NCBI RefSeq assembly: GCF_056712565.1
Contig: NZ_CM160072.1
Length of the DNA: 64,000 nucleotides
Direction: 5' to 3' (one strand)
Both the position numbers and the translations under genes were made by a program. The notes beneath the pieces were generated by a model, which was given only the letters and a program-made list of their open reading frames with translations, ran no database searches and had not been told where the DNA came from. This document shows, one piece after another, positions 8,756 through 38,594 of the stretch. Within the stretch, counting starts at the first letter, position 1. Each line of letters begins with the position of its first letter.

Positions 8756-11431
8756 TTAAGCGGATTTTTTCGCTTTTTTCTCAGCTTTAGCCGGAGCGGC
8801 TTCTTTCTTCGCTGCAGTTTCGCCTTCTACATAATCACGACCGTAGTAAGTATCCAGCAGAATCTGTTTCAGCTCGGAGATCAGCGGGTAACGCGGGTTA
8901 GCGCCGGTGCACTGGTCATCGAATGCATCTTCAGACAGTTTATCCACGTTCGCCAGGAAGTCTGCTTCCTGAACGCCAGCTTCACGGATAGATTTCGGAA
9001 TACCCAGTTCAGCTTTCAGCGTTTCCAGCCATGCCAGCAGTTTCTCGATCTTAGCTGCAGTACGGTCGCCCGGTGCGCTCAGACCCAGGTGGTCGGCAAT
9101 TTCAGCATAACGACGGCGAGCCTGCGGACGGTCATACTGGCTGAATGCAGTCTGCTTGGTCGGGTTGTCATTCGCGTTGTAGCGAATAACGTTACAAATC
9201 AGCAGGGCGTTTGCCAGACCGTGCGGAATATGGAACTGGGAACCCAGTTTGTGCGCCATTGAGTGACATACACCCAGGAAGGCGTTCGCAAACGCGATAC
9301 CCGCGATAGTCGCTGCACTGTGAACACGTTCACGCGCTACCGGATTTTTAGACCCTTCGTGGTAGGACGCTGGCAGATATTCTTTCAGTAGTTTCAGTGC
9401 CTGCAGAGCCTGACCATCAGAGAACTCAGATGCCAGTACAGAAACATAAGCTTCCATGGCGTGAGTTACTGCGTCCAGACCACCGAAAGCACACAGGGAC
9501 TTCGGCATGTCCATAACAAGGTTGGCGTCGACAATCGCCATATCCGGGGTCAGTGCATAGTCTGCCAGCGGATATTTCTGACCAGTAGTGTCGTCAGTTA
9601 CAACCGCAAACGGAGTGACTTCAGAACCTGTACCAGAAGTGGTGGTGACAGCGATCATTTTCGCTTTCACACCCATTTTCGGGAACTTGTAGATACGTTT
9701 ACGGATATCCATAAAGCGCAGCGCCAGTTCTTCGAAGTGAGTTTCCGGATGTTCGTACATAACCCACATGATCTTCGCAGCGTCCATCGGGGAACCACCA
9801 CCCAGCGCGATAATCACGTCTGGTTTGAAGGAGTTTGCCAGTTCTGCACCTTTACGAACGATGCTCAGGGTCGGGTCAGCTTCTACTTCGAAGAAGACTT
9901 CAGTTTCAACGCCTGCTGCTTTCAATACGGAAGTGATCTGATCAGCATAGCCATTGTTGAACAGGAAGCGGTCAGTCACGATGAGCGCACGTTTGTGGCC
10001 ATCAGTAATCACTTCATCCAGCGCGATTGGCAGGGAGCCACGGCGGAAGTAGATAGATTTCGGAAGTTTGTGCCACAACATGTTTTCAGCTCGCTTAGCA
10101 ACGGTTTTCTTGTTGATCAGGTGTTTCGGACCAACGTTTTCAGAGATGGAGTTACCACCCCAGGAACCACAACCCAGAGTCAGGGAAGGTGCGAGTTTGA
10201 AGTTATACAGGTCACCGATACCACCCTGAGAAGCCGGGGTGTTAATCAGGATACGAGCCGTTTTCATTTTCTGACCGAAGTAAGAAACGCGAGCCGGTTG
10301 GTTATCCTGGTCAGTGTACAGGCAAGAGGTATGACCGATACCGCCCATAGCAACCAGTTTCTCTGCTTTTTCTACCGCGTCTTCGAAATCTTTAGCACGG
10401 TACATTGCCAGAGTCGGGGACAGTTTTTCATGTGCGAACGGTTCGCTTTCATCAACAACGGTCACTTCACCGATCAGAATCTTGGTGTTTTCTGGTACAG
10501 AGAAGCCTGCCAGTTCAGCAATTTTATAGGCTGGCTGACCAACGATAGCCGCGTTCAGCGCACCGTTTTTCAGGATAACGTCCTGAACAGCTTTCAGCTC
10601 TTTACCCTGCAACAGATAGCCGCCGTGGGTTGCGAAACGTTCACGTACTGCGTCATAAACAGAGTCAACAACAACAACAGACTGTTCAGAAGCACAGATT
10701 ACACCGTTGTCGAAGGTTTTGGACATCAGTACAGATGCAACTGCACGTTTGATATCAGCAGTTTCATCGATAACAACCGGAGTGTTGCCCGCGCCTACGC
10801 CGATAGCTGGTTTACCGGAGCTGTATGCGGCTTTAACCATGCCCGGACCACCAGTCGCGAGGATCAGGTTGATGTCTGGGTGGTGCATCAGTGCGTTAGA
10901 CAGCTCAACAGAAGGTTGATCGATCCAGCCGATCAGATCTTTCGGAGCACCGGCAGCGATAGCAGCCTGTAGAACGATATCAGCCGCTTTGTTGGTTGCA
11001 TCTTTTGCACGCGGGTGCGGGGAGAAGATAATGGCGTTACGGGTCTTCAGGCTGATCAGCGATTTGAAGATAGCAGTTGAAGTCGGGTTAGTGGTCGGAA
11101 CGATACCGCAAATAATACCGATGGGTTCAGCGATAGTGATGGTACCAAAAGTGTCGTCTTCAGACAGAACACCACAGGTTTTTTCATCTTTATAGGCGTT
11201 GTAAATATATTCAGAAGCAAAGTGGTTTTTGATCACTTTATCTTCGACGATACCCATGCCGGATTCGGCAACGGCCATTTTCGCGAGTGGGATTCGAGCA
11301 TCTGCAGCAGCCAGAGCGGCGGCGCGGAAGATTTTGTCTACTTGCTCTTGAGTGAAACTGGCATATTCACGCTGGGCTTTTTTTACACGCTCTACGAGTG
11401 CGTTAAGTTCAGCGACATTAGTAACAGCCAT
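8756..11431 (-). CDS. adhE: Bifunctional acetaldehyde-CoA/alcohol dehydrogenase
   Basis: 891 aa with N-terminal aldehyde dehydrogenase and C-terminal Fe-ADH domains, lysine-rich tail. Confidence 0.97.
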
Positions 11432-35554: not shown

Positions 35555-35685
35555 CGAGATTAAAGTGCATTAGTTCAGATGCAAATTGACATTTTGTGGC
35601 ACAGGGTAGAGCTAGCGTGGTTGTCCGCTTTGTGCCAATAGCGGACATTGCTGGCTCATGGTATGTTAGTTTAAGGAGGCAGGTT

Positions 35686-36708
35686 ATGCCCTGTATTTCG
35701 CTGTGGTATAATAGTTGCGCAATTGATACAAGGGAGCGTTACATCGTGAAAATTGTTTTCGAGGTTAATGGAAAGAAAGTTCCACTAAAATCTTTAAAAT
35801 ACATAAGCAAAAAAGATCAACTCGAAGTAATGAAAAACTGGTTCTTTGAAAACTTTGAAGATCCGGCAAATGCTTGTCCGTATGAAAGTAGAGAAGGTGG
35901 CTATGCTTACATATATGGCGGGCCGTATGATGCGAGCGAAGAACTACAATCCATCTTCGGTCAATATGTTAAATCTGAGTATATTGAGGAATTAGTAGAT
36001 GAATTACAAACACAATGTTTTGACTGGTCTGGAAACTCAAATAATATAGATGATTGGTACGATGATGATATCTACGACGCTGTAACGTCTTCCGGTAATC
36101 CGTATTTAAAATTCATTGATAATATCGATAAAATAAAAAAACTTGCAAAAGATAAAACTGAACAACAGCAAAAAAACCACTTGCTTAGTTTGCTCTACAC
36201 GAATGTTATTACAGCTTTGGAAACGCTTTATGTTGAGCTATTCATTAATTCTATAGAGAAAGATGATGTCTACATAGCCAATTGTATAGAAAAAGGTAAG
36301 ACTGAATTTAAAGTAAGCAAAGATATTGCTGCGTTGCCTTTCAAGGGTGAACCCATCGAGAAAATTAGGGGAGAGCTAATCAGGTCAATCAAGGAACACT
36401 TGATCAGTGCAAGCTGGCATAGCACTAAAAAGGTAATCGACCGCTATGAAGCTACATTCGATATAAAAGTACAAAAAGACTGTCCGATAGAAGCTATTGA
36501 ATTGGCAACCCTCAATCGAAATCACTTAGTGCATCGTGGTGGAAAGGATAAAGAAGGGAACCTCGTAGTGATTACAGACCAGGATCTTGAAACGCTGATT
36601 GAAAATGCATCGAACCTGGCAATTATGCTCTACAACAGTTTAAATGTAGCAACGAATAAAACCACCATTTTGCAACCAGATGACAAACCGTTCATTCATG
36701 AATTTTAA
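35686..36708 (+). CDS. AT-rich cargo gene 1: protein with HEPN-like R-N-x3-H motif near the C-terminus
   Basis: AAGGAGG RBS 6 nt before ATG 35686 (alternative GTG at 35746); strongly AT-rich body; motif LNRNHLVHRGG. Confidence 0.55.
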   Translation: MPCISLWYNSCAIDTRERYIVKIVFEVNGKKVPLKSLKYISKKDQLEVMKNWFFENFEDPANACPYESREGGYAYIYGGPYDASEELQSIFGQYVKSEYIEELVDELQTQCFDWSGNSNNIDDWYDDDIYDAVTSSGNPYLKFIDNIDKIKKLAKDKTEQQQKNHLLSLLYTNVITALETLYVELFINSIEKDDVYIANCIEKGKTEFKVSKDIAALPFKGEPIEKIRGELIRSIKEHLISASWHSTKKVIDRYEATFDIKVQKDCPIEAIELATLNRNHLVHRGGKDKEGNLVVITDQDLETLIENASNLAIMLYNSLNVATNKTTILQPDDKPFIHEF

Positions 36709-36723
36709 TAGCGCAGGTCATAC

Positions 36724-37725
36724 ATGGATATTCGCACACGAAAGACAAAATTTTTAGAGTCGTTAGATTCAACTGAAGTGATACGCAAAGCAGTAAGTCT
36801 CGCTATAGATTGCATTATTGATAATCATAATAGTAATGAAGATACCCCCTTAGTTATTACCAGCTATGATGATCTCTGTAGAATCCAGGTGCTAAATTAT
36901 GTACAGGAGTTTTGCGAAGCTGCATTCCCTGATATGGATGAATATTACTTTAGTCCTAACATACTTCGCATCAACGGCAAGACTAGTGAAGAAGCTTGTA
37001 TTAACTTAATTAAACTCTTAAGAAGTACAAAAGGCATGCTATTCTGGTCCGATGCCCCATCGTGGTTCGCTAGCCTCCCCGACGGATTATTCCATGTTGT
37101 TAACATTGATCAAAAAATCGTTACTCGCGGCCTTAATAAGAAAAACTCTAAGCCGACAATAATCAATAAAGATTACAGTGTAGATACACTACTATCAGAG
37201 CTATTTTTGAATGGCGCACACATGGAGCAACCCAACGTACACAACGTTTCTGAGGGAAACATGAAGTTCTATGATGAATGCCATGCTGGATTAATCAGAC
37301 CAATACCCGCTCCAATAGGCGCGTCATACGATGAAGAGATCACAATTAATTCTCCAGATTGGCAAAAGCTCGCGTGTGTAGCTTTACGCCGCTATCAGTC
37401 GAAGGAATGTCATGACGGAATGCAATGGGATACAACCGATCATGGTTGGACTGATGTAATCGCGTATCCATTCGTCGAAGAAATACAATCAATGGATAAT
37501 AGTGGTTATCGACAATGTTTAGTTGGGCTGGTCACAATAAACAATTCAAATGCAAATTCTCCGTACCTATCTACCGTTTGGATACATCCATTTTATCGCA
37601 GGAGAGGGTTATTAAGTAAGTTATGGCCAAAATTACAAGAGTTATATGGAAGTAACTTCGAAATTGAGCGACCTAATGAAAATATGAAAGCATTTCTGAA
37701 AAGTGCGAAACACGCAGATTACTAA
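36724..37725 (+). CDS. AT-rich cargo gene 2: protein with GNAT-like C-terminal motif
   Basis: 333 aa, 15 nt after gene 1; C-terminal ...LSTVWIHPFYRRRGLLSKLWPKL... resembles GNAT acetyl-CoA motif A. Confidence 0.5.
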   Translation: MDIRTRKTKFLESLDSTEVIRKAVSLAIDCIIDNHNSNEDTPLVITSYDDLCRIQVLNYVQEFCEAAFPDMDEYYFSPNILRINGKTSEEACINLIKLLRSTKGMLFWSDAPSWFASLPDGLFHVVNIDQKIVTRGLNKKNSKPTIINKDYSVDTLLSELFLNGAHMEQPNVHNVSEGNMKFYDECHAGLIRPIPAPIGASYDEEITINSPDWQKLACVALRRYQSKECHDGMQWDTTDHGWTDVIAYPFVEEIQSMDNSGYRQCLVGLVTINNSNANSPYLSTVWIHPFYRRRGLLSKLWPKLQELYGSNFEIERPNENMKAFLKSAKHADY

Positions 37726-38041
37726 TTTATGAATCAGTCTGTGGAGTTAGGGTTGGTGTCAACAAGTAGGGTAAGAGCCTCAACGTGATGCTATGCCGAC
37801 CTGCTCCCTGAGAATTCACACAGAAGGCTGCTAGCAATGTCTGCAGATCGCTCAAAGCGGACTAGAAGGTTAGCTTGCGTCGGACTTGGCGTATTTAAAG
37901 AAGTGCTGGTGGTGACTGGTTGTTGTGTTCCATTTCTACAGAACAAAATCACAGAAACTATACCCAATAGTTATATTGAATCAATGATGAGACAGCCTCA
38001 TATTTATCAGAACTGGTGTACGTCCAATACAGGAGGTTGTC

Positions 38042-38131
38042 GTGCTGGTTCTCAAATGTGCGCTAGCTATTGCGGCTGTAATGGCAATTTATTGTCTTGC
38101 TGTTGTTCTTATGGATCGCCTTTCTGATTGA
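38042..38131 (+). CDS. Candidate 29-aa hydrophobic peptide (type I toxin-like)
   Basis: AGGAGG at 38031-38036 then GTG; translation VLVLKCALAIAAVMAIYCLAVVLMDRLSD; overlaps in another frame the Cys-rich track ORF 37837-38127. Confidence 0.3.
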   Translation: MLVLKCALAIAAVMAIYCLAVVLMDRLSD

Positions 38132-38342
38132 TTTTATATTGGCGAGGTGACGGGAGTTAAGTAGAATTGCTGCGGGTGCTTGAGGCTATCTGCCTCAGGC
38201 ATGAACACCAAAGGCAGATAGAGAAAAGCCCCAGTTAATATTACGCGTCCTGCAAGACGCTTAACATTAATCTGAGGCTCAATCTATGAACGGCAAATCT
38301 AGGTTAGCCTCTTACGTGCCGAAAGGCAAGGAGAAGCAGGCT

Positions 38343-38498
38343 ATGAAGCAGCAAAAGGCGATGTTAATCGCCCTGATCGTCATCTGTTTAACCGTCATAG
38401 TGACGGCACTGGTAACGAGGAAAGACCTCTGCGAGGTACGAATCCGAACCGGCCAGACGGAGGTCGCTGTCTTCACAGTTTACGAACCTGAGGAGTAA
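38343..38498 (+). CDS. hok: Hok/Gef-family type I membrane toxin
   Basis: 51 aa MKQQKAMLIALIVICLTVIVTALVTRKDLCEVRIRTGQTEVAVFTVYEPEE. Confidence 0.85.
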   Translation: MKQQKAMLIALIVICLTVIVTALVTRKDLCEVRIRTGQTEVAVFTVYEPEE

Positions 38499-38567
38499 GA
38501 GACCCGGCGAGGGAGAAATCCCTCGCCACCTCTGATGTGTCAGGCATCCTCAACGCACCCGCACGTA

Positions 38568-38594
38568 ACCCGCTTCGGCGGGTTTTGTTTTTTC
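38568..38594 (+). terminator. Rho-independent terminator
   Basis: aacccgcttcggcgggtt followed by ttgtttttt. Confidence 0.7.

What the first reader, a model, noticed from the sequence alone, without database searches (positions are those of the whole stretch)
37800..38500. Hok toxin preceded by a second candidate small hydrophobic peptide and an overlapping Cys-rich ORF
A clear Hok/Gef toxin is at 38343-38498. Just upstream, a perfect AGGAGG RBS precedes a GTG-initiated 29-codon ORF (38042-38131) encoding a single hydrophobic helix, a typical type I toxin shape. In another frame the same DNA gives a 96-aa ORF (37837-38127) whose C-terminus is Cys/Gly/Ser-rich with 12 cysteines. Only one of these is likely real, and I cannot decide from sequence alone.
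Basis: partly seen in the sequence, partly recalled or inferred. Interest (0 to 1): 0.5.

Follow-up and report, generated by a model that had tools for sequence, protein, structure and literature searches.

The report
Unannotated membrane peptide gene beside hok
Next to a known prophage killer gene (hok/sok) in E. coli lies a real but unannotated 29-amino-acid membrane peptide gene, while the overlapping 96-amino-acid cysteine-rich reading frame is an accident of the sequence.

Summary
The window is the Qin-like lambdoid prophage of E. coli ATCC 11775. It carries a complete hok/mok/sok locus, a GTG-started 29-codon ORF with an AGGAGG ribosome-binding site (38042-38131), and an overlapping 96-codon ORF (37837-38127).

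Comparative data decide between the two ORFs.
- **29-codon ORF:** it is intact in 52 of 56 distinct homologous sequences. Its third codon positions vary about 3.5 times more than positions 1 and 2. Divergent alleles give dN/dS of 0.2-0.35 even where synonymous sites are near saturation. It encodes one hydrophobic helix.
- **96-codon ORF:** its start, length and cysteines are not conserved, and its substitutions look neutral. It is a frame artefact.

The peptide family matches nothing in Pfam, NCBIfam, PHROGs or PADLOC. RefSeq showed no annotated feature under it in any of the 40 genomes listed from across the ranking. Its DNA is present in about 32% of complete E. coli genomes, including BL21(DE3).

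In every case where enough downstream sequence was available, hok follows the ORF. The pair sits behind at least 37 different upstream cargoes.

[quoted passage not shown] The function is inferred only: a small inner-membrane peptide, either toxin-like or working with Hok.

The parts
37839..37862 (+). Hairpin at the left edge of the conserved cassette. Window sequence GTCTGC...GCGGAC; consensus GTCCGCTT-CTCGCTCA-AAGCGGAC. No U-tract. Marks the boundary with the variable cargo.
   Evidence: Alignment: the stem is kept, with G-U-type changes on the + strand. Homology of most relatives starts at about 37848.
37863..37975 (.). Conserved non-coding spacer of the main lineage. It contains indels, including a 14-nt deletion in the mEp460 type, and is replaced outright in several lineages.
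   Evidence: Nucleotide diversity is 0.073, between that of ORF codon positions 1+2 and position 3. No Rfam match and no unusual fold.
37976..38004 (+). Candidate weak sigma-70 promoter for the small ORF: -35 TTGAAT (37976-37981), 17-nt spacer, -10 CATATT (37999-38004).
   Evidence: Read from the sequence. The hexamers and the 17-nt spacing are kept while the spacer sequence differs in the L061, L004, L069 and L137 variants. It matches only 8 of 12 consensus positions, so the scanner did not flag it. Inferred, not shown.
38031..38036 (+). Shine-Dalgarno AGGAGG, 5 nt before the GTG start.
   Evidence: GGAG(G/A) followed by a start codon is kept in nearly all of the 52 intact homologs, including those with an unrelated 5' region. 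One divergent allele (L117) has AAAGG instead. The L134 allele has its own AAGGAGGG plus ATG at a shifted start.
38042..38131 (+). Real gene: 29-codon ORF for a single-helix hydrophobic peptide, MLVLKCALAIAAVMAIYCLAVVLMDRLSD. Founding member of an unannotated family of 29-34 aa.
   Evidence: Intact in 52 of 56 unique homologs. Synonymous:non-synonymous changes are 17:17 against 32% synonymous expected, p=0.02. Diversity is 0.112 at codon position 3 against 0.032 at positions 1+2. dN/dS is 0.21-0.35 for divergent alleles. All minus-strand frames contain stops. GRAVY 1.81. AlphaFold2 gives helix 2-29 at pLDDT 92.
37837..38127 (+). 96-codon Cys/Gly/Ser-rich ORF: not a gene. It is an out-of-frame reading of the small ORF plus upstream non-coding DNA.
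   Evidence: The ATG at 37837 is absent in most homologs. The open frame varies from 18 to 108 codons. Cysteines change to Y, R, G or S. Synonymous:non-synonymous changes are 8:26, as expected for neutral drift. Database entries range from 47 to 104 aa. Six of the 11 Cys codons come from Leu/Ala/Val codons of the small ORF read one base out of frame.
38139..38167 (+). hok promoter: TTGGCG, 17 nt, TAGAAT. It begins 7 nt after the small ORF's stop codon.
   Evidence: The same site is found in L136 and L137. The Rfam model of the hok leader starts at 38174.
38174..38348 (+). hok mRNA leader, the target region of Sok.
   Evidence: Rfam RF01794, 113.3 bits, E=5e-26, full model length.
38286..38498 (+). 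mok, a 70-codon reading frame that overlaps hok.
   Evidence: Annotated as mok/MokW in related phages.
38343..38498 (+). hok (hokD type), a 51-aa Hok/Gef family toxin.
   Evidence: PHROG 251, E=2.8e-32. NCBIfam Hok subfamily, E=6e-12. RefSeq annotates it as hokD.
38226..38329 (-). Inferred Sok antisense gene: -35 TTGCCT (38329-38324), 17-nt spacer, -10 TAACCT (38306-38301), with the RNA running leftwards to about 38226.
   Evidence: Read from the sequence by analogy with the R1 and sokW loci. Not tested here.
38548..38594 (+). 3' end of the hok mRNA. An fbi-like element, CCTCAACGCACCC (38548-38560), is complementary to the 5' end GGGTGCTTGAGG. It is followed by an intrinsic terminator (stem 38567-38584, then a T-run).
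   Evidence: The weak Rfam isrK hit at 38507-38588 (27.8 bits, below the gathering score of 50) covers this segment.

Best explanation
The 29-codon GTG ORF (38042-38131) is a genuine protein-coding gene. RefSeq does not annotate it. It encodes a 29-residue peptide that forms a single hydrophobic helix and is most likely inserted in the inner membrane. Lys5 would face the cytoplasm and the acidic MDRLSD tail the periplasm. The overlapping 96-codon Cys-rich ORF is a frame artefact.

The peptide gene and the downstream hok/mok/sok locus form one conserved cassette in the nin region of lambdoid prophages of E. coli and E. albertii. The ORF's stop codon lies 7 nt before the hok -35 hexamer, and no terminator lies between them.

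The gene is probably expressed from a weak promoter of its own (TTGAAT-17-CATATT), by read-through from upstream phage early transcription, or both. Transcripts probably continue into hok.

- **Shown:** the coding status, the helix, the linkage to hok, and the absence of any known family.
- **Inferred:** membrane insertion and topology, the promoter, and the function.

My best guess for function is a small membrane-active peptide that is either toxic at high dose or modulates Hok action during prophage induction. I do not think it is a stand-alone type I toxin-antitoxin system with its own antisense RNA.
For: **Coding status.**
- The ORF is intact, with GTG (or ATG) and the stop codon kept, in 52 of 56 unique homologs. 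The ribosome-binding site is kept in nearly all of them; L117 has AAAGG.
- Variable columns by codon position 1/2/3 are 10/7/16.
- Synonymous:non-synonymous changes are 17:17 in this frame. They are 8:26 and 10:24 in the other + frames. The binomial p is 0.02 in this frame and 0.73-0.86 in the others.
- Diversity is 0.112 at position 3 and 0.032 at positions 1+2.
- A profile search of 1.84 billion proteins found only 17 relatives, including alleles about 50-60% identical that keep the motif (V/I)YCLxVVLMDRL(S/G)(D/N).
- For those alleles dN/dS is 0.21-0.35 at dS 0.5-1.7, and each has its own Shine-Dalgarno sequence.

**Helix and hydrophobicity.**

**Linkage to hok.**
- Of 74 loci found through the ORF, 66 have the hok ATG about 211 nt after the ORF stop. 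One has an IS element in between. Seven contigs end too soon to tell.
- All three divergent alleles whose context was read are followed by hok.
- There are 37 different upstream contexts in 71 loci.

**Distribution.** The ORF-region DNA is present in 1739 of 5426 complete E. coli genomes. No annotated feature lay under the match in any of the 40 listed rows. BL21(DE3) carries it at NC_012971.2 1591435-1591524, minus strand.

**Background.** Prophage HokW is produced on mitomycin C induction and aids phage release (PMC8621323).
Against: - There is no direct evidence of transcription, translation or membrane location.
- The candidate promoter matches only 8 of 12 consensus positions and is absent in some lineages (L136, BL21).
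- The sample is taxonomically narrow: Escherichia only.
- Most sequences came from a DNA anchor inside the ORF. The divergent alleles came from a protein-profile search, which biases dN downward.
- hok does not need the ORF. About 45% of hok-anchored prophage loci have neither this ORF nor either of the other two small hydrophobic ORF families upstream; about two thirds lack this ORF. Many hok loci keep only a 3' remnant of it.
- The ORF also persists where hok is disrupted by an IS element.
- Linkage could therefore reflect shared history rather than shared function.
Confidence: 0.75

Rival explanations
1. The 29-aa ORF is the toxin of a second, independent type I toxin-antitoxin system. It would be repressed by its own antisense or divergent small RNA, as for tisB/istR, zorO/orzO or hok/sok.
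For: - The size (29 aa, the same as TisB and ZorO), the single hydrophobic helix and the short polar C-terminus match the search criteria for type I toxins (PMC2887945).
- It sits in a prophage next to a proven type I system.
- A predicted stem (38013-38023 with 38056-66) encloses the Shine-Dalgarno sequence and start codon.
- In this window a minus-strand promoter-like site (38160..38131) points into the ORF, and another (37984..37957) is divergent from it.
- There is a precedent for two small toxin ORFs at one prophage type I locus: yonT/yoyJ with SR6 (PMC5848175, abstract).
Against: - The -10 of the 38160..38131 site is TGAAAT or TGCAAT in most homologs. In L134 a 34-nt insertion alters its spacing.
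- Divergent alleles L136 and L137 have no minus-strand promoter-like site at all. The sites in L134 lie elsewhere.
- The candidate divergent RNA and Sok pair with the ORF mRNA no better than shuffled sequences do.
- The region upstream of the promoter is replaced in several lineages.
- The stem that would sequester the Shine-Dalgarno sequence has no compensatory changes, and the fold energy is ordinary, z=0.01.
- The inferred 5' UTR is only about 30 nt.
- There is no homology to any known toxin family.
Confidence: 0.15
2. The peptide is a protein-level partner of Hok, either an antiholin-like inhibitor or a co-toxin. The cassette would then be a two-peptide membrane module used at prophage induction or in defence.
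For: - Synteny with hok is strict and the junction is fixed, even in alleles whose DNA has diverged 25-40% while hok stays about 97-100% identical.
- No terminator lies between the ORF and hok.
- Both products are predicted to be single-pass peptides with the N-terminus inside.
- In a hok-anchored sample, 55% of loci have one of three unrelated small hydrophobic ORF families directly upstream of the hok promoter.
Against: - hok loci without the ORF are common, and one of them (hokW) is shown to be functional.
- The ORF survives where hok is interrupted by an IS element.
- There is no interaction or co-variation evidence, because hok is nearly invariant.
- Neighbouring position in a mosaic phage region is weak evidence of shared function.
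Confidence: 0.2
3. The 96-aa Cys/Gly/Ser-rich ORF is the real gene, for example a secreted or modified Cys-rich peptide, and the 29-codon ORF is incidental.
For: - Some genome submissions annotate it as a hypothetical protein, for example UTI89_C1473.
- It is the longest ORF in the interval.
Against: - The start codon is missing in most homologs. The open frame ranges from 18 to 108 codons, and there are frameshifting indels upstream.
- The cysteines are not conserved.
- Substitutions are 8 synonymous to 26 non-synonymous, as expected without constraint.
- No family hit.
- There is no Shine-Dalgarno sequence at 37837.
- RefSeq showed no annotation for it in the 40 listed rows.
Confidence: 0.02
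4. The interval is non-coding. On this view the DNA is conserved as an upstream regulatory or UP-like element of the hok promoter, or as a 5' extension of hok transcripts, and the ORF is a by-product.
For: - The 3' 25-50 nt of the ORF is the most conserved DNA here. It is retained even in recombinants that have lost the rest of the ORF.
- It lies at -40 to -60 relative to the hok transcription start.
Against: - The codon-position pattern and dN/dS cannot be explained by DNA-level constraint.
- In L134 the 3' end keeps the amino acids FLMDRLGN while using different codons, and a 34-nt insertion moves it away from the hok promoter.
- The Shine-Dalgarno sequence and start codon are kept in unrelated 5' contexts.
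Confidence: 0.05

Closest known systems
Hok/Sok (hokD / hokW-sokW) type I toxin-antitoxin loci of lambdoid prophages
   Same: The downstream neighbour is a complete member of this group: hok, mok, the Sok target leader, an fbi-like 3' element and a terminator. The small peptide shares Hok's general design, with a short basic N-terminus, one hydrophobic helix and a polar C-terminus. It also shares the prophage location.
   Different: The peptide has no detectable homology to Hok (hhalign probability 0.4%; no Pfam, NCBIfam or PHROG hit). It lacks Hok's periplasmic Cys-containing domain, a mok-like overlapping frame, and any conserved antisense gene.
Chromosomal type I toxins of about 29 aa (TisB, ZorO) and related small toxins (ShoB, DinQ, Ibs, Ldr)
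   Same: It has the same length class, a single transmembrane helix, and a polar or charged end. It is missed by annotation pipelines and restricted to Escherichia.
   Different: No sequence similarity. The inferred 5' UTR is short rather than long and processed. No divergent or overlapping small RNA with complementarity was found. Toxicity is untested.
yonT/yoyJ with SR6 in the B. subtilis SPbeta prophage (two small toxin ORFs at one type I locus)
   Same: It is a prophage locus with two adjacent small toxin-like ORFs on one strand and a single known antisense RNA (abstract of PMC5848175, seen).
   Different: There, one antisense RNA overlaps both ORFs. Here, Sok lies more than 130 nt from the small ORF and shows no significant complementarity to its mRNA.
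Non-toxic small inner-membrane proteins of E. coli (KdpF, AcrZ, MgtS, PmrR class)
   Same: They are 25-50 aa single-helix peptides, often unannotated, that act by binding a larger or neighbouring membrane protein.
   Different: Those are chromosomal and usually partnered with a transporter or sensor. This one is phage-borne and partnered, by position only, with another small peptide.

Membership tests
Protein-coding gene (29-codon ORF) | Reading frame kept open, with start and stop conserved across homologs | tested here: met
   52 of 56 unique sequences are intact. The four exceptions are three recombination truncations and one stop-to-Cys change. In a hok-anchored sample, 37 of 38 copies are intact.
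Protein-coding gene (29-codon ORF) | Purifying selection in this frame only | tested here: met
   17:17 synonymous:non-synonymous against 32% synonymous expected (p=0.02); the other five frames are not significant. Diversity is 0.112 at position 3 and 0.032 at positions 1+2. dN/dS is 0.21-0.35 for divergent alleles. Caveat: the divergent alleles were found by protein similarity.
Protein-coding gene (29-codon ORF) | Ribosome-binding site conserved at the right distance from the start | tested here: met
   GGAG(G/A), 5-6 nt, then GTG in nearly all lineages, including those with unrelated 5' regions. L117 has AAAGG instead. L134 has AAGGAGGG plus ATG at a shifted start.
Protein-coding gene (29-codon ORF) | Direct evidence of translation (ribosome profiling, tagging, mass spectrometry) | not testable with these tools
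   The supplement of the BL21 Ribo-RET study is not held. No paper contains the peptide sequence.
Type I toxin-antitoxin system (for the 29-aa ORF) | Small hydrophobic peptide (under about 60 aa) with one transmembrane helix and a polar C-terminus | tested here: met
   29 aa, GRAVY 1.81, best 19-residue window 2.70. AlphaFold2 gives helix 2-29 at pLDDT 92. The criteria are those of PMC2887945.
Type I toxin-antitoxin system (for the 29-aa ORF) | A cis-antisense or trans small RNA antitoxin complementary to the toxin mRNA | tested here: inconclusive
   Only sequence proxies were available, and all were negative. No positionally conserved minus-strand promoter was found. Duplex energies with a candidate divergent RNA and with Sok fall within the shuffle distribution. 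No transcriptome data were available.
Type I toxin-antitoxin system (for the 29-aa ORF) | Toxicity on over-expression, relieved by the RNA | not testable with these tools
   Needs an experiment.
Type I toxin-antitoxin system (for the 29-aa ORF) | Homology to a known type I toxin family (Hok, Ldr/Fst, TisB, Ibs, ShoB and others) | tested here: not met
   No Pfam hit even at E<=10. No NCBIfam, PHROG or PADLOC hit. hhalign probability is below 1.2% against Hok, TisB and the 27-aa peptide.
Hok/Gef family with hok/mok/sok architecture (for 38139-38594) | Hok-family toxin ORF | tested here: met
   PHROG 251, E=2.8e-32, full length. NCBIfam Hok subfamily, E=6e-12, although 45 bits is below the curated cut-off of 73. 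RefSeq annotates it as hokD.
Hok/Gef family with hok/mok/sok architecture (for 38139-38594) | Structured leader targeted by Sok, overlapping mok frame, and 5'-3' (tac/fbi) complementarity | tested here: met
   Rfam RF01794, 113 bits, full model. mok at 38286-38498. CCTCAACGCACCC at 38548-60 is complementary to GGGTGCTTGAGG at 38174-85. Terminator at 38567-84. The Sok promoter is read from sequence only.
96-aa Cys-rich ORF as a gene | Conserved start, length and cysteines, with constraint in its frame | tested here: not met
   (frame open for 18-108 codons, ATG mostly absent, Cys changed to Y/R/G/S). (8:26, p=0.86). (annotated lengths of 47-104 aa).

The most novel reading that the evidence does not exclude
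Prophage hok loci may not be solitary type I systems. They may be the last gene of a small 'membrane-peptide slot'. In about half of hokD-type prophage loci, one to two unrelated small hydrophobic peptides are encoded directly in front of the hok promoter. These are the 29-34-aa family found here, a 27-aa '...YSICRW(R/G)' family, and a 72-aa family. On this reading the 29-aa peptide would act with Hok at the protein level, as an antiholin-like brake or as a co-toxin. That would add a protein layer to a system thought to be controlled only by RNA.
Probability: 0.15. Interest if true: 0.7.

Novelty: new member of a known kind. Interest (0 to 1): 0.45.

Why it matters
The gene appears to be a conserved microprotein under purifying selection. 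Its DNA is present in about a third of complete E. coli genomes, including the type strain and the production strain BL21(DE3). It matches nothing in Pfam, NCBIfam, PHROGs or PADLOC, and RefSeq showed no annotation for it in the genomes listed.

It sits 7 nt from the promoter of one of the best-studied toxin-antitoxin systems. Constructs and deletions made as 'hok/sok' in such strains may therefore carry or cut a second membrane peptide.

If the peptide is toxic or modulates Hok, that would change how prophage hok loci are interpreted, whether as maintenance, lysis-timing or defence functions.

The result also shows how an alternative frame of a hydrophobic-peptide gene can produce a striking but spurious Cys-rich ORF that some genome submissions have annotated.

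Tried and rejected
- **Family searches on the peptide.** Rfam, Pfam, NCBIfam, PHROGs and PADLOC gave nothing.
- **Protein homolog search.** I worked round this with an exact look-up and a profile search that used a 30-aa allele as the first sequence.
- **tblastn against phage records.** Only four Escherichia phages carry it.
- **Scan of one genome per species.** Only E. albertii turned up, plus a few MAG contigs that are probably contamination.
- **Trans-antitoxin idea.** Neither a divergent minus-strand RNA (37848-37952) nor Sok pairs with the ORF mRNA better than shuffles. Rejected.
- **Cis-antisense promoter at 38160..38131.** It is not conserved. Rejected as a family feature.
- **Structured mRNA or small RNA.** Fold z-scores are 0.01 to 0.72, and the consensus structure has no compensatory pairs. 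No support.
- **Homology of the peptide to Hok, TisB or the 27-aa neighbour peptide.** None.
- **Literature.** I searched for the peptide sequence, the locus tag, Hok surveys, small-protein catalogues and the BL21 Ribo-RET study. There was no mention, or the supplements are not held.
- **Lipoprotein or signal-peptide reading.** Rejected by inspection, because there is no lipobox.
- **A minus-strand gene sharing the wobble positions.** Rejected, because all minus-strand frames contain stops.
Full report
**Where this is.** The interval is 100% identical to the chromosome of E. coli ATCC 11775 (DSM 30083). It lies inside a Qin-like lambdoid prophage. To the left are dicB/ydfABC, the cI/cro-like regulators, replication genes and a DUF977 (ren-like) gene. 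To the right are rem-like, DUF968 (ydfU), rusA and Q antiterminator genes. This is the 'nin' region, where lambdoid phages carry accessory genes. G+C falls to 0.31-0.44 over 35.7-38.1 kb and returns to about 0.55 at hok.

**Checking the observation.** All three features exist at the stated coordinates.
- hok (38343-38498) is embedded in the 70-codon mok frame (38286-38498). It matches PHROG 251 at E=2.8e-32.
- The leader at 38174-38348 matches Rfam RF01794 over the full model at 113 bits.
- A promoter (TTGGCG-17-TAGAAT, 38139-38167) and a terminator (38567-38584) bracket a transcript of about 400 nt.
- The sequence CCTCAACGCACCC at 38548-38560 is complementary to the transcript's 5' end, like the fbi element of hok mRNA.
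- The 29-codon ORF has AGGAGG at 38031-38036, five bases, then GTG at 38042.
- The 96-codon ORF has 11 cysteines rather than 12.

**Which ORF is real.** Megablast shows that the interval from about 37848 to 38160 occurs in 1739 of 5426 complete E. coli genomes. RefSeq had no annotated feature under the match in any of the 40 rows listed from across the ranking. Four sequenced phages carry it: Tritos, Evi, mEp460_ev081 and HannyBb.

I collected 70 further copies from viral contigs using a 15-nt anchor, giving 56 distinct sequences. The results for the 29-codon frame were:
- The frame is open, with GTG (or ATG) and TGA kept, in 52 of 56. The ribosome-binding site is kept in nearly all. The exceptions are three recombination truncations and one stop-to-Cys change.
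- Outside the anchor, variable columns fall 10/7/16 on codon positions 1/2/3.
- Seventeen of 34 distinct changes are synonymous, against 32% expected (p=0.02). The 96-codon frame has 8 of 34 (p=0.86), and no other frame is significant.
- Within the main lineage, nucleotide diversity is 0.032 at positions 1+2 and 0.112 at position 3. The flanking non-coding DNA is at 0.05-0.07.
- All minus-strand frames contain stops.

A profile of the peptide searched against 1.84 billion representative proteins found 17 relatives only. They include much more divergent alleles:
- MLAALKGFVAILAVVAIYCLVVVLMDRLSD
- MLIIKGVLAIVIVVAIYCLVVTLWERLSD
- MSDDISLAMEGALAVVAVVGVYCLVVFLMDRLGN

At the DNA level these differ from the window by 25-40% inside the ORF, yet they keep the frame and a Shine-Dalgarno sequence in front of their own start. 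They give dN/dS of 0.21-0.35 at dS of 0.5-1.7. Because they were found by protein similarity, dN is biased downward. The codon-position result in the main lineage does not share that bias.

The 96-codon frame fails every test. Its ATG is absent in most homologs. The open frame varies from 18 to 108 codons. Lineages carry a 14-nt and a 1-nt deletion, or wholly different DNA, upstream. The cysteines change freely. Six of its Cys codons are simply Leu/Ala/Val codons of the small ORF (…CTT GCT GTT GTT…) read one base out of frame. Some GenBank submissions do annotate it, with lengths of 47-104 aa.

**What the product looks like.** The peptide MLVLKCALAIAAVMAIYCLAVVLMDRLSD has GRAVY 1.81. AlphaFold2 predicts a single helix from residue 2 to 29 at pLDDT 92. 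With Lys5 near the N-terminus and an acidic C-terminal tail, an N-in/C-out single-pass topology is the natural inference. That is not shown. It has no match in Pfam, NCBIfam, PHROGs or PADLOC, and no profile similarity to Hok or TisB.

**Context: a cassette with hok.**
- Of 74 loci found through the ORF, 66 have the hok start about 211 nt after the ORF stop. One has an IS element in between. Seven contigs end too soon to tell.
- The three divergent alleles whose contigs I could read are each followed by hok.
- In those loci the hok/sok DNA is 97-100% identical to the window, while the ORF is far more diverged.
- The stop codon lies 7 nt before the hok -35 hexamer, and no terminator intervenes.
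- To the left, 71 loci show 37 unrelated contexts. The conserved block starts at a hairpin at 37839-37862.

The ORF and hok therefore travel together, behind a slot that holds variable cargo. The reverse does not hold. hok-type DNA is found at 11,233 places in 4764 genomes. In a hok-anchored sample of 112 viral contigs, only 37 (33%) have the ORF. Many hok loci keep just its last 25-50 nt. K-12 lacks it. BL21(DE3) has it at NC_012971.2 1591435-1591524, minus strand. Outside E. coli I found it only in E. albertii.

**Expression signals.** A weak promoter-like pair, TTGAAT (37976-37981) and CATATT (37999-38004), keeps its hexamers and 17-nt spacing in four lineages whose spacer sequence differs. 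It scores only 8 of 12. In other lineages (L136, L134, BL21) the ORF instead follows an upstream gene closely, so read-through from phage early transcription is an alternative source. HokW in a related prophage is produced after mitomycin C treatment (PMC8621323).

- The minus-strand promoter-like site at 38160..38131 in this window loses its -10 in most homologs. In L134 a 34-nt insertion alters its spacing.
- L136 and L137 have no minus-strand site at all.
- A candidate divergent RNA and Sok pair with the ORF mRNA no better than shuffled sequences do.
- Predicted folds are unremarkable and lack compensatory changes.

These are proxies, so the question stays open, but the evidence leans against a dedicated antisense gene.

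**Best reading.** This is a real, overlooked gene for a small inner-membrane peptide that forms a conserved cassette with prophage hok/sok. I rate the steps as follows:

| Step | Confidence |
|---|---|
| Protein-coding | about 0.9 |
| Membrane location | about 0.85 |
| Functional tie to hok | about 0.4-0.5 |
| Toxicity at high dose | about 0.35 |
| Own antisense antitoxin | about 0.15 |

**Comparison with what is known.** The closest analogues are TisB- and ZorO-class toxins, Hok itself, and the two-ORF yonT/yoyJ-SR6 locus of SPbeta. It is not a demonstrable member of any of these families. No paper in the library mentions the peptide. A 2026 survey of Hok diversity does not discuss upstream ORFs.

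**Verdict.** The toxin interpretation is unproven. This is a new, narrowly distributed member of the known class of small hydrophobic prophage peptides, and it is of moderate interest.

Noticed in passing
window 35596-36708 and 36724-37725 (+): Two AT-rich cargo genes lie just left of the cassette. One encodes a 370-aa protein (PHROG 17908; Pfam HEPN/RES N-terminal domain 1, E=2.9e-4). The other encodes a 333-aa protein (PHROG 16994; weak GNAT hit, E=2e-3, at residues 264-311). Neither has a PADLOC match. They could be an uncharacterised conflict or defence pair.
   Followed up: partly
window about 37725-37848, and the same slot in 71 related loci: The slot between the replication/ren-like genes and the small-ORF/hok cassette holds 37 unrelated sequences in 71 loci. 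Examples are an acetyltransferase in Evi, a 445-aa protein in Tritos and mEp460, and HigB/HTH in L137. It behaves as a hot spot for variable cargo.
   Followed up: partly
window 37839-37862: A conserved hairpin (consensus GTCCGCTT-CTCGCTCA-AAGCGGAC) sits exactly at the junction between the variable cargo and the conserved cassette. Its changes keep G-U pairing on the + strand, and no U-tract follows. Its function is unknown.
   Followed up: partly
L131 1396-1479 (Stx2 converting phage I); also L134 2771-2854 and L061-type loci: A second, unrelated 27-aa hydrophobic ORF, MTWPEAFANVGTVMAVVLVVYSICRWR, ends 40 nt before the hok transcription start in 933W-type phages. In other lineages it precedes the 29-aa ORF, giving three small hydrophobic peptides in a row. 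It has no PHROG or PADLOC hit. In a hok-anchored sample of 112 loci, 28 carry it and 8 carry a 72-aa hydrophobic ORF at the same place.
   Followed up: partly
L134 2849-3035: In this lineage the 34-aa allele, together with a perfect 22-nt palindrome (CGATATGGGAATTCCCATATCG), is flanked by an 11-nt direct repeat, GGGTAAAAACG. It lies between the 27-aa ORF and the hok promoter, as if the small ORF had been inserted as a discrete mini-cassette.
   Followed up: no
window 38507-38588: A weak Rfam hit to Salmonella IsrK (27.8 bits, below the gathering score of 50) covers the 3' end of the hok mRNA, that is the fbi-like element and the terminator. IsrK-like RNAs of Gifsy prophages may be related to hok 3' regions.
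   Followed up: no
around window 38334, in L084, L063, L006, L024 and phages vB_EcoS-689R5 and vB_EcoM-606R7: Homology breaks repeatedly just upstream of the hok start codon. In L084 about 1.1 kb is inserted there, and in the two phages the match is split into two pieces with a 'mobile element protein' annotated. This recalls the IS-inactivated hok loci of K-12. The small ORF remains intact in these copies.
   Followed up: partly
L125 (NZ_CP033092.2), locus tags between EAS44_RS14295 and RS14280: Two RefSeq locus tags (RS14290 and RS14285) are skipped exactly over the small-ORF/mok interval. This suggests that earlier gene calls here were withdrawn on re-annotation.
   Followed up: no
L138 2181-2540 (BL21(DE3)): In BL21(DE3) the DUF977 (ren-like) gene is fused by recombination into the small-ORF region. 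Its annotated 119-aa product ends in an out-of-frame reading of the small ORF (…FMCWFSNARWLLWL). The annotated C-terminus is therefore probably spurious, and the 29-aa ORF lies directly behind it.
   Followed up: partly
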